IMG/VR virus record: IMGVR_UViG_3300028831_000169
Location: 1 to 45,141 of that record
DNA from: a virus
Reading direction: 5' to 3' (one strand)
Length of the DNA stretch: 45,141 nt
The notes under the pieces were generated by a model. The model did no database searches. It was not told the origin of the DNA and saw only the letters and a program-made list of their open reading frames with translations. Made by a program: the position numbers and the translations under genes. This document shows positions 1-45,141 of this stretch, piece by piece. Each line of letters opens with the position of its first letter. Within the stretch, counting starts at the first letter, position 1.

Positions 1-100
1 CACGCAGCCCGCGCAGCCCACGCATCCCGCGCAGCCCGCGCAGCCCACGCATCCCACGCATCCCACGCATCCCACGCAGCCCACGCAGCCCACGCAGCCC
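1..100. repeat. Terminal direct overlap: bases 1-100 are identical to 45042-45141
   Basis: Unit-by-unit comparison of the 9-mers at both ends. The overlap lies wholly inside the tandem array. It therefore suggests a circular or terminally redundant assembly but cannot fix the copy number. Confidence 0.85.
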
Positions 101-4669: not shown

Positions 4670-6351
4670 ACGTCCAAGACATCACGGGGTTAGAGGAGCA
4701 CCCGGTTCTTCGTCAGATTCCCGATATTTTGCAGGGGGAAGAACGCGAAGCCGCGATCAACGTTCGTAAACAGATTTTAATAAACGAAGTACTCGATCCA
4801 CTCAGGAACGGGTTTGAGTTAGACATCTGGAAACTGGCTGACGATTGGCGCTCTAAGAAACGACTTCAATATCCTAAAGGGGTAATTTGGGAGATTGACC
4901 TTGGTGGAAATCGCAGCGGCAAAACAATGCGCGCGTCAAAAAGGGTAGTGGAAGATTGCGTTGCTAACCCCGGCCATATTTGGTGGTGTTGCGACGCTAC
5001 TGAGACACAGAGCAGGGCGAATCAACAGCGGTATATTTTCAAGCATCTGCCCTACGAATGGAAGCCTGGTGAGACAGGGAGACTGACAAAAAAGAATAGC
5101 CGGGTAACAAAGGTGACATACTCGGTGGCCGGAGGATTTACTGAGAACAACCTGATTCTTCCGAATGGGAGCGAGATTCACTTTAAGTTCTACGAAATGA
5201 ATGTGGCGAACCTGCCCGGTGTAGAGTTGGATGGGATTTGGGCAGATGAGTTGATACCGTTGCCATGGATTGAGACTCTCGTTTATCGCCTAACGAATCG
5301 TAACGGCATCTTTAATATCACCTTCACACCCGAACAAGGATACACCCCTACGGTTGCAAAGTTTCTTGATGGCGCGACAACATTGCAATGGGCTGACGCT
5401 AAACTGTGTCCACATTTTAATGAGGCCGGAGATTTATGCGGCTACGAACGAATCCCAAAAGTTCAACAACCTCTCGACGATAAAGCCATCGTGATCTACT
5501 TCTACAATGAAGATAATCCCTTCGGGAACTACGAGGGACTCAAAATGGATTTGAAGGGTAAGAGTAAAGCGGAAGTGTTGATGCGCGCATATGGAATAGT
5601 GAGCAAAGCCGCGCACGCGCAGTTCCCTTCGTTCAGTGAGGAGATACACGTAGTTGATCCTGATAAGATTCCCAAACAAGGCACGAACTTTCATGTAGTC
5701 GATCCTGCTGATGGCCGGAATTGGTTTATGATATGGGTGCGGATAGATGAGAAAGGTAGATGGTGGATTTACAGGGAATGGCCGTCACATGGACATTTAG
5801 GCGCGTATGTACCGGGGATAGGCGATCCGGGGCCTTGGGCGATACATGGGGCAGCGGCAGACGGCGAACGTGGCCCGGCGCAAAGTCCGTTCGGGTTTGG
5901 ACTGGACAGATACAAAAATGAAATCGAACGACTTGAAAAAGAAGGGGGCGACGAAACGGTTGAGCGTTGGATGGATTCGCGCTACGGAGCTTCCCCTACA
6001 ACTATTGAAGAAGGCACAACTACGCTTATCGAAAAAATGTCGGAAATCGGCATGGATTTTCTTGCGGCAAGCGGGAAGATGATTTCTGAGGGAGTAGATT
6101 TGATTGCAGATAAACTCGATTACGACAGAGACGTAAAGATTGGCGAATTTTCAGCTAGACTTGCGCGCCTCAATGAGCCACGTCTTTACGTATCGCGTAA
6201 TTGTCCCAACATGATTTTCGCTTTCAAGAATTGGACAGGCAAAGACAAGAACCACGGCGCGTGCAAGGATGGAATCGACTGCGCGAGATACGCGGTTCTG
6301 GCGGGAATAGACTACATTGGCGAGGACTCCTACACATGGAAACGATTTTGA
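4666..6351 (+). CDS. terL: Terminase large subunit
   Basis: Walker A GGNRSGKT and Walker B LDGIWADE. C-terminal RNaseH-like nuclease segment (FHVVDPADGRNWFMIWV). 561 aa. Confidence 0.9.
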   Translation: MNVQDITGLEEHPVLRQIPDILQGEEREAAINVRKQILINEVLDPLRNGFELDIWKLADDWRSKKRLQYPKGVIWEIDLGGNRSGKTMRASKRVVEDCVANPGHIWWCCDATETQSRANQQRYIFKHLPYEWKPGETGRLTKKNSRVTKVTYSVAGGFTENNLILPNGSEIHFKFYEMNVANLPGVELDGIWADELIPLPWIETLVYRLTNRNGIFNITFTPEQGYTPTVAKFLDGATTLQWADAKLCPHFNEAGDLCGYERIPKVQQPLDDKAIVIYFYNEDNPFGNYEGLKMDLKGKSKAEVLMRAYGIVSKAAHAQFPSFSEEIHVVDPDKIPKQGTNFHVVDPADGRNWFMIWVRIDEKGRWWIYREWPSHGHLGAYVPGIGDPGPWAIHGAAADGERGPAQSPFGFGLDRYKNEIERLEKEGGDETVERWMDSRYGASPTTIEEGTTTLIEKMSEIGMDFLAASGKMISEGVDLIADKLDYDRDVKIGEFSARLARLNEPRLYVSRNCPNMIFAFKNWTGKDKNHGACKDGIDCARYAVLAGIDYIGEDSYTWKRF

Positions 6352-10355: not shown

Positions 10356-11447
10356 ATGCCAGCCGTAACAACCAAGGATGAAATCGTAAGGGAAGATATT
10401 AGCAACGTGTACCTGAACATTGACGTTCGGGACACGCCGCTTCTCAACGACATCAAACGCGGAGAAAAACTTAAAAACGTCGATCTGTTTTCGTGGGAAG
10501 TCGAGAAGTACACCGACAACTACGACACGGTAGGAGTACCGGAAAACAAGGATGTCGATCAGTTCGAGGGCAACAAACAGTATCAACTTTACAATCGCTC
10601 CATGAAATTCTGGGGCAAACCGCATGTCACGACCGAATCCAACGACATCAACGTTACCCCTGCTGATTTCGGTAAGATGCGGAAAGAAATCACGAACAAA
10701 ACGATTGAAGCCAAGCGCAAAATCGAGAAACGCATCGCTTCCGATAACGACAGTAAAACCGATGACGGCGTATCACAGGGACGCGAGTTCATGGGGCTTG
10801 GCCGGATCATCAACGATACTACTTCGGTTGGTAGTTCGGGAGCGGCGCTTCCATTCACCGATACGCAGACTGCGATCAATTCACTTTTTAGGACGCCCAC
10901 CGCGCAGATTTACGTTGGCGCGTTGACGGACGTAAACGGAAGCGGTGATGTCACTGCGACTTTTGATGACGCTACGTTCATCGGAATGTTAAAGAGCCGG
11001 TTCGATAACGTAGGCCAAATGAACGAACTGGTTTGCTATTGCGATTCGGTTCTGAAACAGCATTTCTCACAATACATTTCCGGCAGGTACGCGGCGAATG
11101 TGCGGGGATTTACGGCAATAGCCCGGACACCGCAGCAAGCGATTTCGCAAAAAGAATATGCGCTCTACGGAGCGGATATTCTTCAGACCGATTTTGGCAA
11201 TATTCAGATTAAACTGATGAGCTTTATGCCGCGTCGCGCGGATGACGGCACGGTTGCTGGACGCGGCTACTTTCTGGACATGACAAAGATCATGCTTCGT
11301 CCGAGCGGCCTATGGCTGACTTACATGCCGTTGGAGGACAAGGGCGCAGGCCCGCGCGGGTTGATCCAGTCGATCTTGGGATTCCAATACGGCGATCCCA
11401 GAGGACACATGAAAGTTGATCCGAACGTTTTGCAGACAACTAGTTAA
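10356..11447 (+). CDS. Major capsid protein (DUF5309 / SU10-type, HK97 fold)
   Basis: The N-terminal pattern DISNVYLNIDVRDTPLLNDIKRGEKLKNVDLFSWEVEKY matches my recollection of that family. Strong SD. 363 aa. Confidence 0.7.
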   Translation: MPAVTTKDEIVREDISNVYLNIDVRDTPLLNDIKRGEKLKNVDLFSWEVEKYTDNYDTVGVPENKDVDQFEGNKQYQLYNRSMKFWGKPHVTTESNDINVTPADFGKMRKEITNKTIEAKRKIEKRIASDNDSKTDDGVSQGREFMGLGRIINDTTSVGSSGAALPFTDTQTAINSLFRTPTAQIYVGALTDVNGSGDVTATFDDATFIGMLKSRFDNVGQMNELVCYCDSVLKQHFSQYISGRYAANVRGFTAIARTPQQAISQKEYALYGADILQTDFGNIQIKLMSFMPRRADDGTVAGRGYFLDMTKIMLRPSGLWLTYMPLEDKGAGPRGLIQSILGFQYGDPRGHMKVDPNVLQTTS

Positions 11448-11923: not shown

Positions 11924-12211
11924 ATGCGAAAGGCTCTAGTAATTGTTATTATCGGAGTTGGAATACCAGGTCTGATGTTCAGCGGGATTTTCGAGGGCAA
12001 AACCGGAACGCACATCGGACAAAAGGCAACCGATAACATTGGGTTCTGGGGCGCTTCGCCGGTTCCTAAACAGATCATTGCAGGGACGCCCTCCGCAGCA
12101 AACCTTGAAAGTGCTTTGGCAAAAGCTGGACTCGTGGCGACAGCTACGCCAACAGCGACGGCAACCGCAACCGCAACGGCTACTCCAACGCCAACTCCCG
12201 GTGGTGAATAA
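11924..12211 (+). CDS. Small protein with an N-terminal TM/signal segment and a C-terminal (TA)n/(TP)n tail (95 aa)
   Basis: Internal ATG 11924 of the track ORF (MRKALVIVIIGVGIPGLMF...[24 protein letters not shown]). Confidence 0.5.
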   Translation: MRKALVIVIIGVGIPGLMFSGIFEGKTGTHIGQKATDNIGFWGASPVPKQIIAGTPSAANLESALAKAGLVATATPTATATATATATPTPTPGGE

Positions 12212-15830: not shown

Positions 15831-18077
15831 ATGTCGCTACAAAACAGAAAACGGTTACTGAACAGTCTGCAAACTGTTCCGGTAAATGGCGCTGAACCGG
15901 CTTCTGTTAAGACGCTAGTTGACCAGTTAGAGGCCGAACTGACAGCATTAGGCACTCCAACAATAGCGCATACAACCAATCTTCTGAAGGGAAGCGGTTC
16001 TGGTAACGCTTCTGATTCGGGGATTGCTGCTTCGGATGTAGTAGTCAAATCCAACGCCACAAGGCCGACTACTCTCAACCAGGTTATTACGATTTTAGTA
16101 AACGCTGGGCTGTGTTCACTGTTGATGGTTAGCTCTGCGTTCGGAACTCAATTTGGAGATATTCCCGCTACGACTGATGTTTCTACGCTCTGGGAATCTC
16201 CAATAGGATATACGCCGGGTAACGTCCTAAATTCCGGTACGCCGCTTGCAGGTCAGTCGGCGCGATGGATTGATGCCACGCATATTGAGGGAGTGCCAAC
16301 ACCTACACCGAGCGCGACTTTTACGCCTACGGCCACAGCTACATCGACAGCAACGGCAACTTCTACCGCCACTTCCACCCCCACCGCCACAGCGACACCT
16401 ACGGCTACGCCTGCTGGAAATGTTTACGCAAGCGCGACTCCGTTAGCCAATCAGTTTGCCGTTTTCACAGACGCCAATCACATCACAGGCGCAACCGCAA
16501 CCGCTACTTTCACGCCAACATCAACCGCGACTTCCACTGCAACTTCGACTGCTACATATACCCCTACTCCCACGGCGACAGAAACGCCCACTGCTACTCC
16601 GGCTGGCAATGTTTATGCGTCAGCAACGCCATTGGCTAATCAACTGGCTATTTTTACCGACGCGACACATATCACCGGAGCGACAGCAACAGCGACGTTC
16701 ACTCCTACCGCGACCGCCACAAATACTTCCACGCCAACAGCAACCGCAACCGCTACCCCAACAGCAACCGCTACGCCCTCAGCCACCCCAGCGGGAAATG
16801 TTTACACAAACACTTCAAACACATACTCCACTGGTACACAAGATTTCACTGGCGCGACCAATACCCTTGTCACTACTCAATCCGCGTCCGACAACAGCAC
16901 CAAAGCCGCGTCAACGGCATATGTCACTACTGGAATATCAAATGCTATTGCTGGCGTAAATCCAGCGGTAGCGGTTCAAGCAGCGACAACTTCTGCATCG
17001 AACACCAGCGGACTTACGTACAATAACGGGATAAGCGGAATAGGCGCGACTCTGACCGGGCCGGCAAACACGGCTCTTACCGTTGACGGATACACATTCA
17101 CTGCTCTTGGACAACGGTTGCTTGTCAAGAACGACACGCAAAGTCCTTCAGGGGCGTTCAACGGAGTCTATTACGTCACTCAACTTCAGGCGCTTGGGTT
17201 GGGACTGGTTCTAACCCGCGTTTTGGATTACGACACTCTAAGCGACATTAATAATACCGGAGCGATTCCAGTCGTTAATGGAACGTCCAACGCGAATACG
17301 TCTTGGCTTCTGACTTCCACTGTAAACACGGTTGGAACTGATCCTCTGACGTATTCTCAATTCTCTATTGCTCCAACCAATTTACTTACAAGTGGCGGCG
17401 CTCTTGGAACGCCTTCATCTGGTACTTTGACGAATTGCTCAGGAACGGCGGCGAGTTTAACCGCTGGCAATGCAACCAAATGGACGACAGGACGTACAAT
17501 TTCACTTACAGGCGATGTTATCTATACCAGCGGCAGTCTAGATGGAAGTGCTAACGTCACAGGCACGGCCACGCTTGCAAACATTCCAGCAATATCAGGC
17601 GCTAATCTCACCGGTACAGCATCAAGTTTCACTGCCGGAAACGTGTCCACCGTACCGACCACGAATAGCAAGACGTTCAATCTCGGTGGAAATTTCGGAG
17701 TGGCTTGGGCGAAATATTCGTTTGCTACAGATGGCGGACTTGTTTCAACGATCACGCCCGGAGCAACGGCGAACACCACCATTCCAGCCAACGCGATCTT
17801 GGTTGGAGGCGTCGTCAACGTAACAACGGCGGTCACGTCCTCTGGTTCGGCCACGGTTGCGATTGGATGCGCGGGAACGGGCGGCAGCACGACTACGCTT
17901 TTGGCCGCAACCGCTAAAACATCCCTGACATTGAACGCGGTACTTGCGACGGTTACAACTTTTGCCGCTCCTAAAAAACTAACCGGGGCGGGAGGAATCA
18001 CTTTCACAATCGGAACCGCTGCGTTGACCGCAGGAGTCATTGAAGTCTGGGTGTTGTACTTTGTCGCAGCCGCTTAA
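15831..18077 (+). CDS. Tail fibre protein with tandem 63-aa repeats and Thr/Ala/Pro/Ser linkers (748 aa)
   Basis: [34 protein letters not shown]... is repeated. The C-terminal half is Gly/Thr/Ala-rich and beta-like. Confidence 0.65.
16212..16810 (+). repeat. In-frame tandem repeat of 189 bp: two full units (16410-16598 and 16599-16787), a degenerate unit before them and a truncated unit after
   Basis: The units start with CC(T/G)GCTGG(A/C)AATGTTTA(C/T)GC and are exactly 189 bp apart. They differ by many substitutions, so this is not an assembly duplication. Confidence 0.85.
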
Positions 18078-23474: not shown

Positions 23475-23887
23475 CAACTGATCCGGTAATCAGGGTTTCA
23501 GTGAAAGAACACGAGCCATTTTCTGTAGCACAAAAACTCTACGCGAAATGGTCTAAGATACCTTTTGAAGATGATCTGGCGGATTATCTGAGAACCGGCT
23601 GTGTCCTGTCGCTACCGACCTGTTTCGGGATGGCGAAGATCATTGACCTTGCTCCTTATCAAAACGGGGTACGGATTGGTAAAATGCAACCTGCGTGGTT
23701 TGTGCGGTGTGCGGTAGGTCAAATTTGGGACTTACTAATCAAGCTTCCTTGCTTTCTACCGCAGATTTGTTTTTGTCGGCGCGGTGAGGACAAACTGCGC
23801 GTGTACGACATGAAACGGTTTCTACAAGTTCTCAAATCAACACGAAAGATTTATGCTCCAAAAACAATGCAGACTATCGCTAGTTGA
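23471..23887 (+). CDS. Hypothetical protein (138 aa)
   Basis: Track ORF, translationally coupled on both sides. Confidence 0.55.
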   Translation: MTTDPVIRVSVKEHEPFSVAQKLYAKWSKIPFEDDLADYLRTGCVLSLPTCFGMAKIIDLAPYQNGVRIGKMQPAWFVRCAVGQIWDLLIKLPCFLPQICFCRRGEDKLRVYDMKRFLQVLKSTRKIYAPKTMQTIAS

Positions 23888-24725
23888 CAAGTTTTTCGGT
23901 GGGAGCGGTGGCGGCGGTGCGCCAAATCCGAATATCACACCGGAACTTCGGAATATCTATAAGGGATTCAATACCCAGACCGTTCCTACGTTTAATAATT
24001 TCGTTCAAGGTCAGCCGTTGTTGAGCACCGCGCAGGGTGGGGCGCTGGATTTCTTTAACCAAATCTCGCCGGTTTTACAGCAAACGTTCGGCTCACAAAT
24101 CTCTCCGGTTTTAGAGAGCGGCGGTGCGCTTACCGCTGAACAAGGGCGGGATGTCACCCAAGCAACACGAGCGGCGTTTGCGGCCAGAGGCAACATCGGT
24201 GGAAATCAAGCTATCGGGGCTGAACTCTTGAACCGCGATCAATACCGGCAGCAACGGTTTAATCAAGCTTTAGGTCAAGCAGGACAGATTCAAGGGCTGG
24301 AAACTGGCGGGTTAAATCAGTTGACCGGCGTAGAACAAGCTGAAACAAGCTCGTTCGCTACCCTTGCCAATCCACTTTACGGACTATTCGAAAACGCGCA
24401 AAACGCCGCGACACAACTCCAAATTGCTAGTGAAAACAAAAACGCGGGATTAGCTGGTGGCGCAATATCGTCAATCGGCAGTATTGCAGGGGCAGCAATC
24501 GGCGCGAGTGACGAACGGCTAAAGGAAAATATTCTGGATACGGGCGAGACTACGCCTGAAGGCATCCCGATTAAAACCTTCACATTCTACACAGACCCAA
24601 ACAAGGTCAGATACATTGGCGTAATGGCCCAGGACGTAGAAAAAGTCGATCCGTCGAATGTGATTACTGATCCGGTGAGCGGTATAAAATTCGTTCCACC
24701 AAAATACTTCCCAAAGTCGGTATAA
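23853..24725 (+). CDS. Gly/Gln-rich virion protein with a C-terminal intramolecular-chaperone (peptidase S74-like) domain
   Basis: SDERLKENILDTGE...YIGVMAQDVEKVDPSNV matches the S-D-x-R-x-K autoprocessing signature of endosialidase/fibre chaperone domains. Confidence 0.6.
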   Translation: MLQKQCRLSLVDKFFGGSGGGGAPNPNITPELRNIYKGFNTQTVPTFNNFVQGQPLLSTAQGGALDFFNQISPVLQQTFGSQISPVLESGGALTAEQGRDVTQATRAAFAARGNIGGNQAIGAELLNRDQYRQQRFNQALGQAGQIQGLETGGLNQLTGVEQAETSSFATLANPLYGLFENAQNAATQLQIASENKNAGLAGGAISSIGSIAGAAIGASDERLKENILDTGETTPEGIPIKTFTFYTDPNKVRYIGVMAQDVEKVDPSNVITDPVSGIKFVPPKYFPKSV

Positions 24726-29655: not shown

Positions 29656-30249
29656 ATGACTGAAAAACGCAGATTACATATCAAGAAATTGGCCATGCTT
29701 CCACGAACAGAACTGTGGAAACGGCATATTAAAGAATCTCTTGGCAGCTTCGAGCGTGATTGTCCAATTTGTGGTACTAGATTTTGGACAGCCAGAAGTA
29801 GAAATCACCGTTTTTGTTCTTGGAAGTGTTCGGCTGCTTCAAGAAAAGGCAAACCATTATCTCAATCTCACAAACTGAAAATTTCATTGGCAAATATTGG
29901 TAGATCATCTGCTTGGCATAAAGAGCATTGGGCTGGCTCTAAAAATCCAAAGTGGAAGCACGGTCTTGCAAGAACCAAAGAATATCACGCTTTTAAGGAA
30001 AAGATGCGTAGAGCCACTGTTAGAACTACTGGCAAATTCACTATATTAGATTGGAATAACCTAAAAGTTCGTTACAACTTTACTTGTCCTGCTTGCAAAC
30101 GACAAGAACCAGAAATTTCTTTAACACCAGACCACGTTGTTCCGATTTCTCGCGGTGGAACAAATCACTTATCCAACATTCAGCCTCTATGCGCTGAGTG
30201 TAATTCACGAAAGGGGAATCGCCATTCGCTTCGCTATAATATCTATTGA
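29656..30249 (+). CDS. HNH homing endonuclease with a NUMOD3-like DNA-binding motif
   Basis: C-terminal PDHVVPISRGGTNHLSNIQPLCAECNSRKGN (HNH). SQSHKLKISLANIG is NUMOD3-like. CxxC zinc knuckles. Visibly more AT-rich than the flanks. Confidence 0.85.
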   Translation: MTEKRRLHIKKLAMLPRTELWKRHIKESLGSFERDCPICGTRFWTARSRNHRFCSWKCSAASRKGKPLSQSHKLKISLANIGRSSAWHKEHWAGSKNPKWKHGLARTKEYHAFKEKMRRATVRTTGKFTILDWNNLKVRYNFTCPACKRQEPEISLTPDHVVPISRGGTNHLSNIQPLCAECNSRKGNRHSLRYNIY

Positions 30250-31924: not shown

Positions 31925-32086
31925 ATGTTACTAGCAATCATAATCGCAGTCGTCGGACTCTTAATGTACGCTCTGGCAGGGAACGCCAAAGTCGTTGAAA
32001 TTGGAAGGATAATGTTCTGGACAGGACTATTAGCCTTTCTGCTCGGTGGCGGTGCAAATGCCGCCGTAGGATTTTTTCATCACTAA
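31925..32086 (+). CDS. Two-TM membrane protein (53 aa), not in track
   Basis: Strong RBS (AAAAGGAGAAAACC ATG). MLLAIIIAVVGLLMYALAG...GLLAFLLGGG. Confidence 0.55.
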   Translation: MLLAIIIAVVGLLMYALAGNAKVVEIGRIMFWTGLLAFLLGGGANAAVGFFHH

Positions 32087-32107
32087 CTAAAAAGAAAGGA
32101 AACCAAA

Positions 32108-32302
32108 ATGCCAAACCCAAACATCAATCCAAATCCACAACCACGTCCGCAACCGCCGCCTACCCCGCGTCCGCATGTTGATTGCGCGAAAGTGCAACAT
32201 ACCTGCGAGATTCTGAAAGCAAAAGGCCCGGAGTACGCGCCGATTGCTCAGTTTCTACTCATGGTAACAGGCTGCTCACCGACCGTGCCGCCCGGAAAAT
32301 GA
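32108..32302 (+). CDS. Pro-rich small protein (64 aa)
   Basis: RBS AAAGGAAACC. MPNPNINPNPQPRPQPPPTPRP... Confidence 0.5.
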   Translation: MPNPNINPNPQPRPQPPPTPRPHVDCAKVQHTCEILKAKGPEYAPIAQFLLMVTGCSPTVPPGK

Positions 32303-32724
32303 GAAAACAACTTGCCCGTTTATTCGTTGCGGCATCCATCGTAATCGCGTCACTGGCAGTTGCACCAATCGGTTGCCAACCGCCTCCGGCTCTCTCGCAG
32401 CAAAACACTGACCAAGTAATCTTGCGCGCAGAACAGACGGCACAAACAGCGCGGCTGACGTTTGACACCTTCGTTCATTTGGAGCGGGACAACGAAGCAC
32501 TTTTAAAACAAGTGAATCCCGCGATTCACGATTACGCGAACACGATTCGTAGGCATGGACTGGATTGGGTAGATTCGCTGCGAACGGCAACCAAAACCTT
32601 CAAAGCGAATCGGACACCGGAGAACCAGTCCAACTTGAATACGTGGCTGACAACTTTGACCAACGCAGTTCAGCAAACCAACAAATACATCGCGCAAAGC
32701 AAAAGCGCAGTAGGAAACCCATGA
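32299..32724 (+). CDS. Helical lipoprotein (141 aa)
   Basis: Internal ATG of the track ORF, overlapping the upstream stop (ATGA). MRKQLARLFVAASIVIASLAVAPIGC carries a lipobox. Confidence 0.6.
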   Translation: MRKQLARLFVAASIVIASLAVAPIGCQPPPALSQQNTDQVILRAEQTAQTARLTFDTFVHLERDNEALLKQVNPAIHDYANTIRRHGLDWVDSLRTATKTFKANRTPENQSNLNTWLTTLTNAVQQTNKYIAQSKSAVGNP

Positions 32725-32924
32725 GTTCAATAATTCCAATCATCCTAAAATATCTTCCTTATCTTGTACAAGCTGCCGCTGAAATCCCGCAGATCACAAC
32801 GTTCCTTGCCGAACTGCAAGCGATCTTCAAACGCGACAAAGTTTGGACAGACCAGCAAGAAGCTGAGTTTGACGCGCAGACAGAAGCGATGCGTTCAGAC
32901 CCAGCTTGGCAAGTCATTGATTAG
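32721..32924 (+). CDS. Small protein (67 aa)
   Basis: ATGA overlap with the upstream stop. Confidence 0.5.
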   Translation: MSSIIPIILKYLPYLVQAAAEIPQITTFLAELQAIFKRDKVWTDQQEAEFDAQTEAMRSDPAWQVID

Positions 32925-32926
32925 GC

Positions 32927-33031
32927 GTGAGCATCGGACTTAAGATCACGTTTCACGCCATAGGTTTTCTGGCAGGCGTGTTTGCGGGATGGTTGACAGG
33001 ATTTTACCTTGCTCTGTTGCGGATTGGATGA
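32927..33031 (+). CDS. Single-TM peptide (34 aa, GTG start), not in track
   Basis: Hydrophobic (FLAGVFAGWLTGFYLALL). Its stop overlaps the next ATG. Confidence 0.35.
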   Translation: MSIGLKITFHAIGFLAGVFAGWLTGFYLALLRIG

Positions 33032-33195
33032 ACGAATATCTTCTCATAGCTGTACTGATCGGGCAGTTAATTACGATTGCGGTTTTGCTTTATCTGGTTA
33101 ATCATTTGTCGCCCGATTACTCAAAAGAGGATCGTGAAGTAAAAGAAGCCACAGACGAAATTAACGAAGCGCGAAACCATTTACCCCAGGACTAA
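33028..33195 (+). CDS. Single-TM protein (55 aa)
   Basis: MNEYLLIAVLIGQLITIAVLLYLV followed by a charged tail. ATGA coupling. Confidence 0.5.
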   Translation: MNEYLLIAVLIGQLITIAVLLYLVNHLSPDYSKEDREVKEATDEINEARNHLPQD

Positions 33196-33219
33196 ATCAA
33201 CCAAAAGGAAAAAACCACC

Positions 33220-33417
33220 ATGCCAGTAGATAAATCCCAATTCGACCAAGACCTACAAGCCATGCTCACGGCGCAGACCAATTACATCGCAGCGGTAAAC
33301 GCTTTCTTGCAGTTGCCGCCCGTGATTGATCTGACCTCGGAAGATAATTCAGTGAAATCCGCCGCTCAAGCCATTGCCGACGCGCAAGCACAACTTCCGC
33401 CACCGCCGCAGCCTTGA
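33220..33417 (+). CDS. Small soluble protein (65 aa)
   Basis: Strong RBS (AAAAGGAAAAAACCACC ATG). Confidence 0.55.
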   Translation: MPVDKSQFDQDLQAMLTAQTNYIAAVNAFLQLPPVIDLTSEDNSVKSAAQAIADAQAQLPPPPQP

Positions 33418-33593
33418 TTTGGCGCATCATATTTACAGTCGTCGTTGCGGCTGTTGGGCTATTCTCGGCGGGGATTGCGTTTCTGGCTGGGGCTAATACC
33501 CCGACCGGAGATAATCCCCAAGCTGTCAGGTTCTTTTTTGGGAGCTTGATCGTGACGGCGCTCGTCATCGCTGTGATATGGCTGATACGTTGA
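33414..33593 (+). CDS. Two-TM protein (59 aa, TTG start), not in track
   Basis: Codon-by-codon reading gives IWRIIFTVVVAAVGLFSAGIAFLAG...SLIVTALVIAVIWLIR. The start overlaps the upstream TGA. Confidence 0.4.
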   Translation: MIWRIIFTVVVAAVGLFSAGIAFLAGANTPTGDNPQAVRFFFGSLIVTALVIAVIWLIR

Positions 33594-33760
33594 GAAAATG
33601 GCGCACGGTAAATTCCCTGTCGATCTACCCGGATAGACCGACGATCTACCGGGACATCATGGAAGGGAAAGCCCTTATCGCGCAACGCATCGAGTTTCCG
33701 CAGGCCGATTACATTGTGAAAGTGCATAATGAAAGCCTCAAGCTGGGCAAAAATCGTTGA
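33578..33760 (+). CDS. Small protein (60 aa)
   Basis: Track ORF, co-oriented. I prefer it over the antisense 181-aa ORF. Confidence 0.45.
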   Translation: MADTLRKWRTVNSLSIYPDRPTIYRDIMEGKALIAQRIEFPQADYIVKVHNESLKLGKNR

Positions 33761-33866
33761 TGCGTTCCCTTTAGCGTACGTAATCTCGTGGCCGGTGATC
33801 GTTATCCTCATAGCCGTTATTCACGGGATAGCGTGTAAGTACGGATGGGGATGGGATTGCCAATAG
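33729..33866 (+). CDS. Single-TM peptide (45 aa), not in track
   Basis: MKASSWAKIVDAFPLAYVISWPVIVILIAVIHGIACKYGWGWDCQ. Confidence 0.35.
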   Translation: MKASSWAKIVDAFPLAYVISWPVIVILIAVIHGIACKYGWGWDCQ

Positions 33867-33878
33867 ATTTTGGGGTGA

Positions 33879-33923
33879 GAAACCCCACTTGCAATAGAGC
33901 TTGGTAAATCACGAGACAGGCTA
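33879..33923 (+). promoter_or_regulatory. Recurrent motif copy A (GAAACCCCACTTGCAATAGAGC...ACGAGACAGGCTA)
   Basis: About 70% identical to copies C and D on the other strand. Preceded by the hairpin TGGGGT-gagaa-ACCCCA, which is flanked by two CAATAGA boxes. Confidence 0.45.
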
Positions 33924-33945
33924 ATCTTTTCCTGAAAATAATTGT

Positions 33946-33972
33946 TTGACAGCGCAAGCTGGTTGCGCTAAT
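33946..33972 (+). promoter_or_regulatory. Sigma70-like promoter candidate TTGACA-N15-GCTAAT with an embedded inverted repeat AGCGCAA-gctgg-TTGCGCT
   Basis: Perfect -35 and a 4/6 -10. The predicted start falls 2-4 nt before RNA module 1. Confidence 0.35.
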
Positions 33973-33982
33973 CGTCCTTCAT

Positions 33983-34058
33983 GCGAGTGGTGAAGGAATC
34001 AGATACTTCATATGGAATGAATGCCGAAAGGCGTTTCTGAGTCCGCTTGTTCCCTCGC
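33983..34058 (+). ncRNA. Structured RNA module 1 (76 nt), Y-RNA-like candidate
   Basis: Closing stem GCGAG/CUCGC, bulged U, GG/CC, and an internal loop UGAA vs GCUUGUU. Then a 9-bp helix GGAAUCAGA/UCUGAGUCC with one mismatch at position 4. Apical hairpins UUCAU-AUGGA-AUGAA and GCC-GAAA-GGC. Confidence 0.55.
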
Positions 34059-34066
34059 TAAAACTT

Positions 34067-34131
34067 TGCCGTGGTGAAGGGCGCAGCTACTTCTTGCTAA
34101 GAAACCATGCTGCATCCGTTTGTTCCCGGCA
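34067..34131 (+). ncRNA. Structured RNA module 2 (65 nt), paralogue of module 1
   Basis: Closing stem UGCCG/CGGCA, bulged U, GG/CC, and an internal loop UGAA vs GUUUGUU. Then a 9-bp helix GGGCGCAGC/GCUGCAUCC with a mismatch at the same position 4. Apical hairpin UUCUU-GCU-AAGAA. Confidence 0.55.
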
Positions 34132-34168
34132 TCTCACTTTCGTTGGTTAAACAAGAAGGACGAAAATA

Positions 34169-35503
34169 ATGAAACTGAACGTAGCAAAACAAACTATTCG
34201 TACGCACGAAGGCGCTCCGGCTAAACACATCAATCCCGAACTACAGCTTCGCAGGTCTGTAATGTCCTGTATGCTGTGGGAAGGGGAGTTTTACGAGAAC
34301 GGAGAATCTATATCTAAACGCATTGGCGAAACTATTGCTAAGGTTCGACCTGAAGCAGTCGCCGCGATTGCAGTCGAGGCACGCGAGAAGATGAAACTCC
34401 GGCACGTTCCACTTTTGATCGTGCGCGAGATGGCGAGACTCGCATCCCACAAGGGACACGTTGCCGAAACTCTATCTCGCGTGATCCAGAGGCCAGATGA
34501 GCTTACCGAATTTCTGGCGATCTACTGGAAGGACAAGCGGCAAGCATTGTCCGCTCAGGTGAAGCGTGGACTTGCTGCTGCGTTTCAGAAGTTCAACGCC
34601 TATTCGCTTGCCAAGTACAATCGGGACGGCGCAATTAAACTTCGGGACGTGCTGTTTTTGTCTCACGCCAAACCCAAAGACGATGAACAGGACAAACTAT
34701 GGAAGCAGCTAATTGACGGCACACTTCCTACTCCCGATACTTGGGAAGTAGAATTGTCGAGCGGTAAGGATAAAAAAGAAGCTTGGGCGCGATTGCTCTC
34801 CGAAAACAAACTCGGCGCTCTAGCGTTGCTTCGGAATCTTCGGAACATGAAGCAAGCTGGAATTTCAGACGACGCCATGAGACACGCCCTGAACGTCATT
34901 AAACCTCAACGTGTTTTGCCGTTCCGATTCATTGCGGCTGCTCGGTTTGCTCCCAATCTTGAGCCTGAATTAGAGCAAGCAATGTTCAAATGTCTTACGG
35001 ACAAAAGCAAGATTCCTGGCCTAACCGTTTTGATGGTTGATGTATCTGGTAGCATGGACGCTTCAATTTCAGGCAAGAGCGATCTACAACGCCTTGATGC
35101 TGCTTGTGGACTTGCAATGCTGGCGCGGGAACTCTGCGAGAAAGTGGCCGTGGTGACGTTTTCGGAAAAACTGGTCGTAGTTCCTGCTCGTCGTGGATTC
35201 GCTTTGCGTGATGCAATAGTTCAGTCGCAATCTCACGGTGGCACATATTTAGGTGAGGCTGTATCTCAAATTAAGAATGAAGAGTTTGATCGGTTAATCG
35301 TAATTTCGGATGAACAGGCGCATGATCCTGTTCCTGATATTGGGCGAAAAGCCTACATGATAAACGTTGCCAGCAATAAAAACGGGGTTGGCTACGGGTC
35401 GTGGACGCACATTGATGGATGGAGCGAAGCCGTACTGGATTTCATAAAAGAATTGGATGGATCACAAGAAGTTCTTGCAGAAACAAGCTCGCAAGGGTGG
35501 TAA
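34169..35503 (+). CDS. TROVE-domain Ro60/Rsr-like protein with a C-terminal vWA domain (444 aa)
   Basis: N-terminal TROVE-like pattern (LQLRRSVMSCMLWEGEFYENG..., LALLRNLRNM). vWA MIDAS motif DVSGSM plus a downstream T and D. RBS AAGAAGGA. Confidence 0.8.
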   Translation: MKLNVAKQTIRTHEGAPAKHINPELQLRRSVMSCMLWEGEFYENGESISKRIGETIAKVRPEAVAAIAVEAREKMKLRHVPLLIVREMARLASHKGHVAETLSRVIQRPDELTEFLAIYWKDKRQALSAQVKRGLAAAFQKFNAYSLAKYNRDGAIKLRDVLFLSHAKPKDDEQDKLWKQLIDGTLPTPDTWEVELSSGKDKKEAWARLLSENKLGALALLRNLRNMKQAGISDDAMRHALNVIKPQRVLPFRFIAAARFAPNLEPELEQAMFKCLTDKSKIPGLTVLMVDVSGSMDASISGKSDLQRLDAACGLAMLARELCEKVAVVTFSEKLVVVPARRGFALRDAIVQSQSHGGTYLGEAVSQIKNEEFDRLIVISDEQAHDPVPDIGRKAYMINVASNKNGVGYGSWTHIDGWSEAVLDFIKELDGSQEVLAETSSQGW

Positions 35504-35639
35504 AGCAGGAAAAGGAAAATCCAAAGTGCGAGGAGATTCCAAATACTACCGTTCTTTAGCCAAGAAACGTTGCCTGTCCTCGGCACTTTCAACGACTCCA
35601 CGGCCTCATCGCGGCGCGAAAAAACAACCAAATGACTGA
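35457..35639 (+). CDS. Possible KGG-motif basic protein (60 aa)
   Basis: ARKGGKAGKGKSK..GDSKYYRSLAKKR resembles KGG stress-motif peptides. Overlaps the Ro60-like gene's end by 47 nt. Confidence 0.3.
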   Translation: MDHKKFLQKQARKGGKAGKGKSKVRGDSKYYRSLAKKRCLSSALSTTPRPHRGAKKQPND

Positions 35640-35732
35640 TCCGGTGCGTTTAATGGGTCAGAACGGAGAAATATGGCAAACGAACCGAATCCGAAACCGC
35701 AACCGCCGCCGCCTCCGGGCCGATAAAAAGAC

Positions 35733-35766
35733 TTACGGCTCGCTGGTTCAACGCCGGGAGCCGTAA
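35733..35766 (-). terminator. Intrinsic terminator for the leftward arm
   Basis: Perfect 9-bp stem TTACGGCTC/GAGCCGTAA with a 16-nt loop. On the minus strand it is followed by GUCUUUUUAUC. Lies at the convergence point of the two arms. Confidence 0.55.
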
Positions 35767-35822
35767 CCGCTATCCCTGGGTACTCCCGGTTTGGACGCGA
35801 TTTAAGGGGGTTTCTGAGCGTT

Positions 35823-36029
35823 CTAGGGGGTATTGGGCGTTGATGTTAGATGCCCGAAACGGTCGTGTTGTTCCCACCATAGTTTTTCCAGGTCGGGAAT
35901 CTGACTCTTTTTCCATCCTAACTCAGTCACGCAAAGGCTCACCCATTCTGCGCAGGCTTTTGCGGCTTGCAAAGTGGGGGTGATCTGTCCTTTGCGCGTA
36001 TTAGCTTCCACTGAATCAGTGTTTCTCAT
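35823..36029 (-). CDS. Hypothetical protein (68 aa)
   Basis: Last track ORF of the leftward arm. Confidence 0.5.
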   Translation of the reverse strand: MRNTDSVEANTRKGQITPTLQAAKACAEWVSLCVTELGWKKSQIPDLEKLWWEQHDRFGHLTSTPNTP

Positions 36030-36116
36030 TCCAAATCCTCAGGGGTCTGTAAGGTGTCGCTGCTGCTCACAGATAATTCTGTTTCTTTAGGTTAAGGTGA
36101 TACCGTGGAGTCATGG

Positions 36117-36767
36117 TCAGTTCTGAGGACAGGCTGCCCGTAAATTCCAATCCGGTAGATCAACGTCCACGACTACGCTTCCATGTCGTATCATACGGCT
36201 GGCAATTCGCTGATCGTATTTTTCAGCAATCGTTTCCATTGATACATTAGCGGTAATCATTGTCCATTTGTATTCCCTTCGTGTGAAAAACTCGCATAGC
36301 TTGGCGTCTGAAAACTCCGTTCTGTATTCGCTGAAAACGTCGTCAACCACTAGAAAATCCTCATCGCACAATGACAAAAACTGATCGTGCTCCCCGCCTC
36401 TAACGCTGGCCGCGATGTCCAACCACAACTCAAAATTGCATAAAGGAACCCGGCTGGCGACCTTCTTTGCGAGCATAGTCTTTCCAGTGCCGCTCGATCC
36501 GAGTAAACTTAGCCATCGTGGTTTGAATTTCGATTTACGCGGATGATCCAGTGAATAAGCATTGTGTGTTCGTCGGCAGTCCATCCAGTCGAACGCTTCT
36601 CGACCAAAGCGCAGGGATTCCTGCTTCATCTTCTCAAGCTGTTTGTCTCCGCAGGTTTGGAATTCAGGAAACCACTTTTCCCAATCCTCGATACTGACCG
36701 GATTTTCCGGCGTTGAGGGTGTCATCATTTCTATTGCTACGGGAATTATGTCTTTGACTTGTTGCAC
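36117..36767 (-). CDS. DnaC/IstB-like AAA+ helicase loader
   Basis: Walker A GSSGTGKT and Walker B FLVVDDV. Lies downstream of the replisome organiser. The start may be an internal Met. Confidence 0.7.
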   Translation of the reverse strand: MQQVKDIIPVAIEMMTPSTPENPVSIEDWEKWFPEFQTCGDKQLEKMKQESLRFGREAFDWMDCRRTHNAYSLDHPRKSKFKPRWLSLLGSSGTGKTMLAKKVASRVPLCNFELWLDIAASVRGGEHDQFLSLCDEDFLVVDDVFSEYRTEFSDAKLCEFFTRREYKWTMITANVSMETIAEKYDQRIASRMIRHGSVVVDVDLPDWNLRAACPQN

Positions 36768-37576: not shown

Positions 37577-38059
37577 CTAATTTGAATGAAGTGATTCGAT
37601 GAAAGCCCCGAGACTTATCTTTCCGACGCGCAAAACATAACGTTTTATCCTGCCCTTCGCGTAATCCATCCCCAGTTTGATGATCGTCCCTTGGGGAGCT
37701 GCGTAAATCGGCTCGATGTTACGCATAACCTCGTCAATCGCTTCTTGAATTTCGGTAGCCTTTGCTTGTCCAAGCTTGCCGGTGAATGCGACGCACGTCA
37801 CCTTGTACTCCACACACAATTCAGGAAGGCGGGGCTTGTCTATGGCGGAATGCTTGCCACGATCTTTCGTAACTACTATCCATCCGCCCTGTTGTGCCAA
37901 GCTAGGCACCCAAACTGAATCGCACCGTTTAGCCCTATATTCTTCAAATAGGTGGCGAACTTTCAGCGACGGATAAGCCGGGGTGTAGTAATGGAGCAAG
38001 CGTGCAGCAATCGGGTGAGCGACGCATTCATCCAGAAAGATTTTCGGGCTTAAAATCAC
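37577..38059 (-). CDS. DUF5615/Mut7-C-like PIN-type nuclease (toxin candidate)
   Basis: The pattern KIFLDECV...CDSVWV...GGWIVVTKDRG fits the FLaDEnv...D...ilvT.D signature. Confidence 0.5.
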   Translation of the reverse strand: MILSPKIFLDECVAHPIAARLLHYYTPAYPSLKVRHLFEEYRAKRCDSVWVPSLAQQGGWIVVTKDRGKHSAIDKPRLPELCVEYKVTCVAFTGKLGQAKATEIQEAIDEVMRNIEPIYAAPQGTIIKLGMDYAKGRIKRYVLRVGKISLGAFIESLHSN

Positions 38060-44747: not shown

Positions 44748-45141
44748 GGGTTTATTGAGAATCCAAGGGTGTTTTTTTCTGTTGGGATCGCGATTTCAAG
44801 CCCGTTGAGGTAAGCGTCCCTGATTCCTGCCGTGAGTAGATCGATAGGGTGTGTAATCCACTTGTTAAATGACGCGAAATTGATGGTGAGCGCATCCCGC
44901 GCATCCCGCGCATCCCCCGCATCCCCCGCATCCCGCGCAGCCCGCGCAGCCCACGCATCCCGCGCAGCCCACGCATCCCGCGCAGCCCGCGCAGCCCACG
45001 CATCCCACGCATCCCACGCATCCCACGCAGCCCACGCAGCCCACGCAGCCCGCGCAGCCCACGCATCCCGCGCAGCCCGCGCAGCCCACGCATCCCACGC
45101 ATCCCACGCATCCCACGCAGCCCACGCAGCCCACGCAGCCC
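44744..45141 (-). CDS. Tripeptide-repeat protein, C-terminal part. Open to the window end, absent from the track.
   Basis: Third minus frame: ...[71 protein letters not shown]-stop. The TGA (44746..44744) overlaps ATG 44747 (ATGA). The frame is consistent with 1..644 once the 100-nt overlap is removed (45041 mod 3 = 2). Confidence 0.75.
44890..45141. repeat. 9-bp tandem array NCGCAKCCC, 28 units (N=A/G/C, K=G/T)
   Basis: Direct reading. Units 9-18 and 19-28 have the identical variant order, which gives a 90-bp higher-order period. Confidence 0.95.

What the first reader, a model, noticed from the sequence alone, without database searches (positions are those of the whole stretch)
34169..35503. 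Phage-encoded short Ro60/Rsr-like TROVE-vWA protein placed as a separate unit at the end of the late arm
At 444 aa the protein is shorter than the roughly 500-540 aa I recall for cellular Ro60/Rsr, yet it keeps a MIDAS-type DVSGSM vWA motif.

It follows the tiny-membrane-protein cluster. It is preceded by its own regulatory features (motif copy A at 33879-33923, hairpins, a sigma70-like box) rather than being translationally coupled as its neighbours are.

Motif copy A is otherwise found only in the early arm. This suggests the Ro module is expressed with the early genes.

Cellular Rsr works with exoribonucleases such as PNPase, and in some bacteria sits with RtcB/RtcA. None of those partners is encoded here. 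The phage protein would have to use host partners, or sequester host or phage RNAs (for example damaged tRNA/rRNA produced by host anticodon nucleases).
Basis: partly seen in the sequence, partly recalled or inferred. Interest (0 to 1): 0.65.

Follow-up and report, generated by a model that had tools for sequence, protein, structure and literature searches.

The report
Phage Ro60 gene with two Y RNAs
The gene is a real phage version of the ring-shaped RNA-binding protein Ro60, and the "hairpins" in front of it are two small partner RNAs (Y RNAs); this protein-plus-RNA module is already known from other phages, so it is a solid but not surprising find.

Summary
The ORF at 34169-35503 (+, 444 aa) is real. 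It is a full-length TROVE + vWA (Ro60-type) protein with an intact MIDAS site (D291, S293, S295, T359, D381). Its length is normal for a very large family (PHROG 850; more than 8000 homologues, mostly 430-475 aa). The nearest solved structure is phiRo60 of Thermus phage phiLo.

The main addition is that the upstream "hairpins" are two tandem Y-RNA-like genes (33981-34061 and 34065-34134). Each is helix / conserved internal loop (UGAA opposite CGYUUGUU) / helix / UACUUC apical region. A covariance model built from 15 such units finds only these two in the window (69 and 66 bits). It finds about 80 more beside TROVE genes in 30 related loci, with strong covariation. In relatives the same stem often carries a tRNA-like insert (Rfam YrlA); both window units lack it.

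A conserved sigma70-like promoter (33946-33974) would start transcription at the base of unit 1. No promoter fits between unit 2 and the ATG, so RNAs and mRNA are co-transcribed. Motif A is real but lies outside the conserved cassette (33923-35565).

Phage Ro60 with Y-like RNAs is already published (Chen 2014; Hu 2025). This is a new member of a known kind. The host-PNPase mechanism is inferred.

The parts
33877..33921 (+). Motif A: a ~45-nt phage-specific element (GAAACCCCAC..CAATAGA..ACGAGACAGGC) shared with four sites upstream of - arm genes. It lies outside the conserved Ro cassette. Function unknown; possibly an early promoter or 5' UTR element.
   Evidence: Core 11-mer exact 5 times, oriented with transcription each time. 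Alignment A1. Homology to L019 starts at 33923, right after it.
33946..33974 (+). Sigma70-like promoter: TTGACA (33946-33951), 17-nt spacer holding the palindrome GCGCAA-N5-TTGCGC (33952-33968), then TAATCG (33969-33974). Predicted transcription start at about 33981-33983.
   Evidence: The block is nearly identical in L019, where the flanks are diverged (A5). Comparable promoters end 3-9 nt before the first Y unit in many viral loci: score >=9/12 in 10 of 25 loci against 0.9% of background positions. The generic scanner did not call it because the -10 lacks the final T.
33981..34061 (+). Y-RNA-like unit 1 (81 nt): helix A (GCGAG/CUCGC plus GG/CC), internal loop UGAA opposite CGCUUGUU, helix B, then an apical AUACUUC region with two small hairpins. 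No tRNA-like module.
   Evidence: Model R1: 68.9 bits, E = 5.5e-17. Folds alone into the consensus structure, z = -3.05. Covariation.
34065..34134 (+). Y-RNA-like unit 2 (70 nt): helix A (GCCG/CGGC plus GG/CC), internal loop UGAA opposite CGUUUGUU, helix B (GCGCAGC/GCUGCAU), then an apical UACUUC region with a 5-bp hairpin. No tRNA-like module.
   Evidence: Model R1: 66.0 bits, E = 3.6e-16. Folds alone into the consensus structure, z = -2.51.
34155..34160 (+). Shine-Dalgarno-like GAAGGA, 8 nt before the ATG.
   Evidence: Read directly from the sequence.
34169..35503 (+). Ro60-like protein, 444 aa. HEAT-repeat/TROVE part at about aa 20-276, vWA at about aa 282-418 with MIDAS residues D291, S293, S295, T359 and D381, and a C-terminal helix at aa 421-431.
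35457..35639 (+). Small, very basic ORF (60 aa, lysine/glycine-rich N-terminal part) overlapping the last 47 nt of the Ro60 gene in another frame. It may be part of the cassette in this lineage only.
   Evidence: First 38 aa are 76% identical in L019 and L020. DNA homology runs to 35565. No Pfam match. Absent from more distant relatives.

Best explanation
The locus is a self-contained Ro60/Y-RNA module carried by a tailed phage.

Transcription starts at a conserved sigma70-type promoter (33946-33974), right at the base of the first of two tandem ~70-80-nt hairpin RNAs (33981-34061 and 34065-34134). It then continues into the Ro60-like gene (34169-35503).

The two RNAs are short Y RNAs of the YrlB/Yrn2/Yrl type. 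The 5' and 3' ends pair, and a conserved asymmetric internal loop (UGAA opposite CGYUUGUU) provides the Ro-binding site. The apical part is a small hairpin, not the tRNA-like domain of YrlA.

The protein is a compact HEAT-repeat ring closed by a vWA domain with a metal site. After processing of the leader, protein and RNAs would form a ribonucleoprotein.

By analogy with D. radiodurans and Salmonella Rsr-Y RNA-PNPase and with phage phiLo phiRo60-Yrl-PNPase, the particle would engage a host 3'-5' exoribonuclease, most likely PNPase. That would change which RNAs are degraded in the infected cell, probably early in infection.

Shown here: protein family and fold, the MIDAS site, the RNA structure and its covariation, the conserved linkage to TROVE genes, the promoter conservation, and co-transcription geometry (no room for a separate promoter).

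Inferred: protein-RNA binding, leader processing, the PNPase partner, timing, and the benefit to the phage.
For: Protein:
- Pfam TROVE 6e-20 and VWA_2 3e-7.
- PHROG 850 "RNA-binding protein", 7.5e-56 over residues 7-430.
- Full-length match to phiRo60 (9l5y/9kop), E = 1e-25.
- AF2 model with pLDDT 86. Its 13 best PDB matches are all Ro60/Rsr structures, with phiRo60 first at E = 1e-18.
- All five phiRo60 metal-site residues and 4 of 8 RNA-contact basic residues are kept. The MIDAS residues are invariant in 33 homologues.

RNA:
- 15-unit alignment A3. RNAalifold gives 16 pairs, all with compensatory changes.
- 87.9% of cells paired against 36-50% in slid controls, covariation 0.79 against <0.2, 0 of 500 shuffles.
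- Model R1 finds only the two units in the window; the next best hit is 10 bits.
- R1 finds 46 hits in 15 viral loci, 7 in the closest relatives and 27 in 11 cellular loci. All are on the gene strand and adjacent to the TROVE gene.
- 52-hit alignment: 92.9% paired, covariation 0.84.
- R1 hits with long apical inserts enclose the Rfam YrlA hits of relatives, so the stem is the YrlA basal stem.
- The YGAAG box corresponds to the CGAA motif needed for phiRo60 binding (PMC12135203).

Organisation:
- The closest relative, L019 (85% identity), has the same two-unit layout with different but still pairing helix B and a conserved promoter.
- Its ATG lies 12 nt after unit 2. In the window the gap is 34 nt.
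- Promoter enrichment before first units.

Precedent: Chen 2014 (PMC4201824) and Hu 2025 (PMC12135203).
Against: - No experiment exists on this phage. RNA accumulation, processing and binding are all untested.
- Global TM-score to Ro60 structures is only about 0.48 (rmsd ~13 A), so ring closure in the model is not demonstrated.
- Both window units have UGAA. In phiLo Yrl2, C-to-U at that position reduced affinity about 3-fold, although U is common among natural units (A3).
- R1 does not detect the published upstream Yrl1/Yrl2 of phiLo. The link to the only biochemically tested phage RNAs therefore rests on the shared motif and architecture, not on a model hit.
- The PNPase step comes from in-vitro data in a 26%-identical system. 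In that system the complex attenuated PNPase rather than specialising it, and no in-vivo phenotype is known.
- The host is unknown.
Confidence: 0.7

Rival explanations
1. The two hairpins act only in cis, as a leader element of the Ro60 mRNA, and are not released as trans-acting Y RNAs. The protein would bind its own leader to repress or stabilise its message.
For: The units lie between the conserved promoter and the ATG, with only 34 nt (window) or 12 nt (L019) before the start codon, so they are necessarily part of the mRNA leader. No terminator-like site follows unit 2.
Against: In relatives the same units form arrays of 3-6 copies. They also occur downstream of the gene (L003, L004, L008) and interleaved with tRNA genes, which fits independent RNAs better than a leader. 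Bacterial Y RNAs are known to be cut out of polycistronic precursors (PMC4201824). The two readings do not exclude each other.
Confidence: 0.12
2. The module serves tRNA metabolism: quality control or protection of tRNAs, for example against host anticodon nucleases. PNPase control would not be its main role.
For: In relatives the TROVE gene sits inside arrays of 8-26 tRNA genes (L007, L008/L016, L011). L008 also has an RNase P RNA. Many of the accompanying Y RNAs carry tRNA-like T and D arms.
Against: The window has no tRNA gene and no tRNA-like Y RNA. Neither do L019/L020, L015 or the phiLo locus L022. The conserved core of the system therefore does not need a tRNA module. No RNA ligase or repair enzyme was found among the window ORFs tested.
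Confidence: 0.13
3. The gene is a decaying or recently captured host fragment with no function in the phage.
For: Relatives at 58-66% identity exist in Acidobacteriota genomes. The cassette looks like an insertion with sharp homology borders at 33923-35565.
Against: The ORF is intact and full length. 118 columns are invariant among 33 homologues, including the MIDAS site. Both RNAs keep pairing through compensatory changes relative to L019. Homologues are widespread in cultured phages (71 records). The best cellular match is only 66% identical, so any capture was not recent.
Confidence: 0.03

Closest known systems
phiRo60 with Yrl1/Yrl2 of Thermus phage phiLo (PDB 9KOP, 9L5Y; Hu et al., NAR 2025, PMC12135203)
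   Same: - Phage-encoded TROVE ring plus vWA domain with the same five metal-site residues.
- Best sequence and fold match among solved structures.
- Y-like stem/bulge/stem RNAs with a (C/U)GAA motif encoded upstream of the gene.
- No PNPase gene in the phage.
   Different: - Only 26% identity.
- The window protein is 58 aa shorter, through loop deletions at phiRo60 196-208 and 427-435 and at the termini.
- 4 of 8 RNA-contact basic residues are not kept.
- My RNA model does not hit phiLo's upstream region. It hits a hairpin just downstream of the phiLo gene instead.
- The host and temperature regime are unrelated.
Bacterial Rsr with YrlA/YrlB (Salmonella, M. smegmatis) and Yrn1/Yrn2 (D. radiodurans); RYPER complex with PNPase (Chen et al. 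2014, PMC4201824)
   Same: - Ro60 orthologue encoded next to two or more Y RNAs on the same strand.
- One class of Y RNA is a plain long hairpin with a small loop (YrlB/Yrn2), like both window units.
- In relatives the basal stem is shared with YrlA-type RNAs.
   Different: - Not an Rsr equivalog (27 bits against 900). D. radiodurans Rsr is found only by fold, not by sequence.
- No rtcBA operon.
- No tRNA-like Y RNA in the window, although Chen et al. found at least one per species.
- About 90 aa shorter.
Rfam RF02553 (YrlA, Y RNA-like)
   Same: Relatives' units with long inserts are sub-threshold YrlA matches (30-50 bits). They share the 5' GG.GAA / 3' UUCCC basal stem with the window units.
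   Different: The window units give no YrlA match even at E <= 10, because the tRNA-like T-arm/D-arm core is replaced by a 20-45-nt apical hairpin region.
PHROG 850 / TROVE proteins annotated in crAss001 (gp96), Caulobacter CcrColossus, Ralstonia RsoM2USA, Xanthomonas/Xylella phages
   Same: Same protein family, 41-55% identity over 95% or more of the length. Y-like units and/or tRNA genes lie beside the gene. The crAss001 homologue is an early gene.
   Different: The window phage is otherwise unrelated to these: its major head protein is 25% identical to a single record. Its cassette holds only two short units.

Membership tests
Ro60 / TROVE protein family | TROVE domain profile match above the curated threshold | tested here: met
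   PF05731: 72.3 bits against a cut-off of 23, E = 6.1e-20.
Ro60 / TROVE protein family | C-terminal vWA domain with a MIDAS metal site (DxSxS...T...D) | tested here: met
   VWA_2: 31.4 bits against 27. vWA_Ro60: 27.0 bits against 27.7, just under. D291, S293, S295, T359 and D381 align to the phiRo60 site D322, S324, S326, T391 and D416; the paper names D322, S324, T391 and D416 as the Ca2+ ligands. These residues are invariant in 33 homologues.
Ro60 / TROVE protein family | HEAT-repeat ring closed by the vWA domain (doughnut fold) | tested here: inconclusive
   AF2 model with pLDDT 86 and pTM 0.65: 17 helices, then an alpha/beta vWA domain, then a C-terminal helix. The 13 best PDB matches are all Ro60/Rsr with full-length alignments at probability 1.00. 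TM is only 0.38-0.51 and rmsd 12-13 A. Topology matches; ring closure is not verified.
Ro60 / TROVE protein family | Binds Y RNA or misfolded RNA | not testable with these tools
   Indirect only: cognate Y-like RNAs are encoded upstream, and 4 of 8 phiRo60 RNA-contact basic residues are conserved.
Bacterial Rsr (NCBIfam NF041674, equivalog) | Score at or above the equivalog cut-off | tested here: not met
   27.2 bits against a cut-off of 900, and only a partial vWA-region match.
Phage Ro60 (PHROG 850; phiRo60-like) | Full-length profile or sequence match to phage TROVE proteins | tested here: met
   phrog_850: 7.5e-56 over residues 7-430. phiRo60: 1e-25 over residues 10-434. 61 phage records cover at least 80% of the query.
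Phage Ro60 (PHROG 850; phiRo60-like) | Y-RNA-like stem/bulge/stem RNAs with a CGAA-type motif encoded beside the gene | tested here: met
   Two units at 33981-34061 and 34065-34134 with UGAA in the 5' side of the internal loop. Definition of the motif taken from PMC12135203.
Phage Ro60 (PHROG 850; phiRo60-like) | Forms a complex with host PNPase | not testable with these tools
   No PNPase domain in any window ORF tested. The host is unknown.
YrlA (Rfam RF02553) | Covariance-model score at or above gathering (69 bits), including the tRNA-like T and D arms | tested here: not met
   No hit at gathering or at E <= 10 in 33500-36300. ARAGORN finds no tRNA-like gene. The apical regions are 20-45 nt with no T or D arm.
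Short Y RNA class (YrlB / Yrn2 / Yrl type) | 5' and 3' ends pair into a long stem with a conserved internal loop, a small apical loop, and a position next to a Ro60 gene on the same strand | tested here: met
   Consensus structure with 16 covarying pairs. Each unit folds alone into it. About 80 further instances, all beside TROVE genes. No curated model of this class exists to score against.
Short Y RNA class (YrlB / Yrn2 / Yrl type) | Accumulates as a discrete RNA bound by Ro60 | not testable with these tools
   Needs Northern blot, RNA-seq or RIP.

The most novel reading that the evidence does not exclude
The 1.6-kb cassette (own promoter with a conserved palindromic operator, two minimal tRNA-less Y RNAs, compact Ro60, small basic protein) is a mobile host-takeover or anti-defence module that moves between unrelated phages and Acidobacteriota genomes. 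Expressed early, its RNP would titrate or retarget host PNPase or another RNase, either to protect phage transcripts or to block RNA-guided or RNA-cleaving immunity. The tRNA-less "mini-Y" RNAs would then define a functional subclass distinct from YrlA.
Probability: 0.15. Interest if true: 0.6.

Novelty: new member of a known kind. Interest (0 to 1): 0.3.

Why it matters
Ro60/Y-RNA particles are conserved from bacteria to humans and are a human autoantigen, yet their role in phage infection is unknown. There is only one in-vitro study of a phage Ro60, and it has no in-vivo data.

This locus adds a very compact example: a 444-aa protein and two 70-80-nt RNAs without the tRNA-like domain, all behind one promoter. 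That makes it a convenient minimal system for binding and structural work.

The covariance model built here recovers about 80 unannotated Y-like RNAs beside TROVE genes in phages and Acidobacteriota. It could seed a curated RNA family that current Rfam models miss. It does not change the current view of what these systems are.

Tried and rejected
- **Rfam on the window.** At gathering score and at E <= 10 around the gene it gave no Y-RNA family. Taken alone this suggested no Y RNA. Comparison with relatives and a purpose-built model overturned that.
- **Rfam Y_RNA (RF00019) match at 8563-8653 (-).** 33.1 bits against a gathering score of 38, E = 0.005. Rejected as chance: it is antisense inside a 705-aa ORF, has no folding signal (z = -0.29), and model R1 finds nothing there.
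- **Downstream gap 35504-36116.** No structure signal (z = -0.32) and no R1 or Rfam hit. A T-loop-like hairpin near 35735-35765 was considered and dropped.
- **Regex unit finder.** It produced mostly false positives and was abandoned for hand-picked seeds plus a covariance model.
- **R1 on phiLo.** The model did not find the published upstream Yrl1/Yrl2, so a direct model-level link to the tested RNAs could not be made.
- **Neighbouring genes.** PHROG and Pfam searches of 39 other window ORFs gave TerL, the major head protein, an HNH endonuclease, a DnaC-like loader, a PIN_10 domain, a collagen-like tail fibre, a weak DarB-like match, a Peptidase_S74 chaperone domain and three PHROGs of unknown function. 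Nothing else matched, and no PNPase, RtcB or RtcA.
- **Motif A as a sigma70 promoter.** No convincing hexamers at proper spacing. Its role stays open.
- **Generic promoter scan.** It gave no more sites than in shuffles and missed the conserved promoter.
Full report
**1. The observation**

DVSGSM is at residues 291-296.

The window is a tailed-phage genome.
- The long + arm carries the large terminase (4666-6351) and the major head protein (10356-11447). It also carries a Peptidase_S74 chaperone domain typical of tail fibres or spikes (23853-24725).
- The convergent - arm starts at 36117-36767 with a DnaC-like helicase loader.
- The Ro-like gene is the last large + strand gene.
- It follows a run of small hydrophobic ORFs (31925-33866; translations). 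None of them has a PHROG match.
- A 302-nt ORF-free gap separates it from them.

The phage has no close cultured relative. Its major head protein is 25% identical to a single record.

**2. The protein**

Profile and sequence matches:
- Pfam: TROVE at 6.1e-20 (72 bits against a cut-off of 23), VWA_2 at 3.1e-07, and vWA_Ro60 just below its cut-off.
- PHROG 850 "RNA-binding protein" matches residues 7-430 at 7.5e-56.
- The NCBIfam Rsr equivalog scores only 27 bits against a cut-off of 900. The protein is therefore not a bacterial Rsr in the strict sense.
- Among solved structures, the only full-length sequence match is the "TROVE domain-containing protein" of 9L5Y/9KOP (E = 1e-25). Human Ro60 reaches only 0.007.
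- Those entries are phiRo60 of Thermus phage phiLo (PMC12135203).

Structure prediction:
- An AlphaFold2 model built on 33 homologues has mean pLDDT 86 and pTM 0.65. It shows 17 helices, then an alpha/beta domain, then a terminal helix.
- Its 13 best Foldseek matches in the PDB are all Ro60/Rsr structures. phiRo60 is first (E = 1e-18), followed by human and Xenopus Ro60 and D. radiodurans Rsr. Isolated vWA domains come next.
- Global TM-scores are only about 0.4-0.5. I count the topology as matched and ring closure as not verified.

Residue mapping onto the full-length phiLo CDS (26% identity):
- The phiRo60 metal-site residues D322, S324, S326, T391 and D416 align to D291, S293, S295, T359 and D381. 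These are invariant in the 33-sequence alignment.
- Four of the eight basic residues whose mutation weakened RNA binding stay basic: K141 to K132, K142 to R133, R169 to R159, and R178 to K168.
- The 58-aa length difference comes from short loop and terminal deletions, not a missing domain.

The family is very large. More than 8000 proteins score E <= 1e-10, and the top 120 are 416-495 aa long, mostly 430-475. "Short" is therefore the family norm.

Homologues at 41-55% identity occur in 71 phage records. These include Xanthomonas/Xylella siphoviruses, Caulobacter, Brevundimonas and Ralstonia jumbo phages, crAss001, and Microcystis, Rhizobium and Vibrio phages. Homologues at 58-66% identity occur in Acidobacteriota genomes (Candidatus Angelobacter, Terracidiphilus, Granulicella).

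**3. The upstream "hairpins" are two Y-RNA-like genes**

Rfam gave nothing in the window, either at gathering score or at E <= 10 around the gene. ARAGORN found no tRNA.

The relatives looked different.
- Sub-threshold YrlA (RF02553) matches lie 100-400 nt upstream of the TROVE gene, on the same strand. Loci: Usme, CcrColossus, L005, L006, L007, L009, L010, L012, L013 and L014.
- In other loci the gene is embedded in arrays of 8-26 tRNA genes (L007, L008/L016, L011).

Reading the upstream sequences side by side revealed a repeated unit present in all of them and twice in the window. Its layout is: helix A, GUGGYGAAG, helix B, RUUACUUC, a variable apical insert, helix B', YUUGUUCC, helix A'.

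Evidence for the structure:
- I aligned 15 short units from 10 loci (A3).
- RNAalifold predicted 16 pairs in two helices. Every pair has compensatory double changes.
- In the controlled count, 87.9% of cells pair, against 36-50% when partners are slid by 1-3 columns.
- The covariation score is 0.79 against less than 0.2, and 0 of 500 shuffles reach it.

Searches with covariance model R1:
- With filters off, R1 finds exactly two matches in the whole window: 33981-34061 (68.9 bits) and 34065-34134 (66.0 bits). The next best is 10.3 bits at E about 1. Both window units were in the seed.
- Non-seed hits are the independent evidence: 46 hits in 15 viral loci, 7 in the closest relatives and 27 in 11 cellular loci.
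- Every one of those hits is on the TROVE-gene strand and next to the gene.
- The 52-hit alignment is 92.9% paired, with covariation 0.84. It is fitted to the model, so it leans that way, but it agrees with the seed-only test.
- R1 hits with 110-150-nt spans enclose the Rfam YrlA hits. Examples: L005 3755-3889 around 3770-3874, L012 1214-1346 around 1232-1337, and L010 3653-3792 around 3668-3777.
- The window units therefore share the basal stem of YrlA-type RNAs but lack the tRNA-like insert.
- Each window unit folds on its own into the consensus structure (z = -3.05 and -2.51).

This matches the second class of bacterial Y RNAs described by Chen et al. [quoted passage not shown] It also matches the stem/bulge/stem Yrl RNAs with a CGAA motif that bind phiRo60 (PMC12135203).

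Both window units read UGAA at that motif. U and C alternate at that position among natural units (A3).

**4. Organisation and expression signals**

The closest relative (L019, 85% protein identity) has the same two tandem short units. Its helix-B sequences differ from the window's but still pair.

DNA homology between L019 and the window is confined to 33923-35565. This defines a cassette made of promoter, two RNAs, the Ro60 gene, and the start of a small basic ORF.

Just upstream of unit 1 there is a nearly identical block (A5). It reads TTGACA (33946-33951), a 17-nt spacer with the palindrome GCGCAA-N5-TTGCGC, then TAATCG (33969-33974). That places the transcription start at about 33981-33983, the first bases of unit 1.

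Similar promoters end 3-9 nt before the first unit in many loci. They score >=9/12 in 10 of 25 loci, against 0.9% of random positions, and 14 of the 16 viral loci score >=8.

Between unit 2 and the ATG there are 34 nt in the window, including a GAAGGA Shine-Dalgarno, and 12 nt in L019. No terminator-like site is present. The RNAs must therefore be transcribed as the leader of the Ro60 mRNA and, if they act in trans, be cut out. Bacterial Y RNAs are cut out of polycistronic precursors in this way.

Motif A (33877-33921) is real.
- Its 11-nt core is exact at five sites. Four are on the - strand, and three of those sit about 10-15 nt before a start codon of a - arm gene.
- The copy before the Ro cassette is followed by no ORF. 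It lies immediately outside the region homologous to L019.
- It is therefore a feature of this phage, not of the cassette.
- It may add early transcription, but that is untested.

Independent support for early expression comes from crAss001. Its TROVE gene belongs to the early module, transcribed 0-10 min after infection (PMC8375218).

**5. Mechanism**

The best-supported reading is a Ro60/Y-RNA ribonucleoprotein made from one transcription unit.

The partner step is inferred from precedent.
- Rsr, Y RNA and PNPase form a complex in D. radiodurans and Salmonella (PMC4201824).
- phiRo60 and Yrl form ternary complexes with host PNPase and slow its activity in vitro (PMC12135203).

No PNPase, RtcB or RtcA domain was found in any of the 39 other window ORFs scanned against PHROGs or Pfam. 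Any nuclease partner must therefore be host-encoded.

Rival readings:
- A purely cis-acting leader (autoregulation).
- A tRNA-centred role. The tRNA arrays and tRNA-like Y RNAs of relatives suggest it. The absence of any tRNA or tRNA-like element here, in L019/L020, in L015 and in the phiLo locus weakens it.
- A decaying host fragment, which is essentially excluded.

**6. Comparison and novelty**

Ro60 orthologues with adjacent Y RNAs in phages were reported in 2014 ("most searched phage genomes"). One was characterised structurally and biochemically in 2025. PHROGs and several GenBank records already annotate the protein family.

The window is thus a new member of a known kind. Three things are new at the level of detail.
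- The two unannotated, tRNA-module-less Y RNAs, which current Rfam models miss.
- A covariance model that recovers about 80 such RNAs.
- The conserved promoter and cassette borders.

Interest is modest (0.3).

Noticed in passing
L008:1072-1347 (same contig family as L016); IMG/VR UViG_3300020583_000158 and UViG_3300050821_003619: A viral contig carries a shortened bacterial class A RNase P RNA (126.8 bits, above the gathering score of 100; 276 nt against a 367-nt model). It sits inside an array of 26 tRNA genes that also holds the TROVE gene and Y-like units. An RNase P RNA on a viral contig seemed unusual to me; I did not check the literature.
   Followed up: no
window 35457-35639 (+): A 60-aa, very basic ORF (MDHKKFLQKQARKGGKAGKGKSKVRGDSKYYRSLAKKR...) overlaps the last 47 nt of the Ro60 gene in another frame. 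Its first 38 aa are 76% identical in L019 and L020. It is absent from more distant relatives and has no Pfam match.
   Followed up: partly
window 33952-33968 (+): A perfect palindrome, GCGCAA-N5-TTGCGC, fills the spacer of the cassette promoter. It is almost unchanged in L019 (GCGCAACCTGCTTGCG). Because sequence rather than pairing is conserved, it may be a DNA operator for a dimeric regulator.
   Followed up: no
window 8563-8653 (-): A sub-threshold match to the eukaryote-type Y_RNA family RF00019 (33.1 bits against 38, E = 0.005). It lies antisense inside the 705-aa ORF 6788-8905. It has no folding signal (z = -0.29) and no R1 hit. Judged a chance match.
   Followed up: yes
window 1-198 and 44844-45140: Both ends of the window are the same 9-nt tandem repeat (CGCAKCCCR). 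It encodes a collagen-like Gly-X-Y tract in the - strand ORF 44752-45111, which matches PHROG tail-fibre and collagen-like families. The 45141-bp contig was probably cut inside this repeat and may be a complete, circularly permuted genome.
   Followed up: partly
L022:3986-4052 (Thermus phage phiLo, 13 nt after the phiRo60 stop): Model R1 finds a Y-like hairpin (25.2 bits, E = 9e-6) with a GGGUACUUCU box just downstream of the phiRo60 gene. It overlaps the annotated CDS phiLo_25. The 2025 paper describes only two upstream Yrl RNAs, and R1 does not detect those.
   Followed up: partly
window 37577-38059 (-): A 160-aa protein with a PIN-like domain (PF18478 PIN_10, 2.4e-10), a possible ribonuclease, is encoded in the - arm 2 kb from the Ro60 gene. 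No link to Ro60 is known.
   Followed up: no
L001 (Xylella phage Usme) and L002 (Caulobacter phage CcrColossus): In both phages the TROVE gene lies next to the lysis genes: a lysozyme directly downstream in Usme, and the spanin, holin and endolysin genes nearby in CcrColossus. In the window it follows a cluster of small membrane proteins. This may only reflect insertion at module borders.
   Followed up: no
L021:96-2640 and 6866-7308 (JGI contig Ga0395908_0000242, 65 kb): A 73%-identical TROVE gene with three Y-like units sits directly after YcaO and TfuA genes and before a very large protein with an ART-PolyVal domain.
   Followed up: no
window 16296-16798 and 12136-12201 (+): Degenerate 12-nt periodic repeats rich in ACN/CCN/GCN codons (family D3) lie inside the 748-aa ORF 15831-18077. 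They probably encode a low-complexity linker in a structural protein.
   Followed up: no
window 29656-30249 (+): An HNH endonuclease (PHROG 8660, 8e-19) is embedded in the late arm between the 1352-aa ORF and the 486-aa ORF.
   Followed up: no
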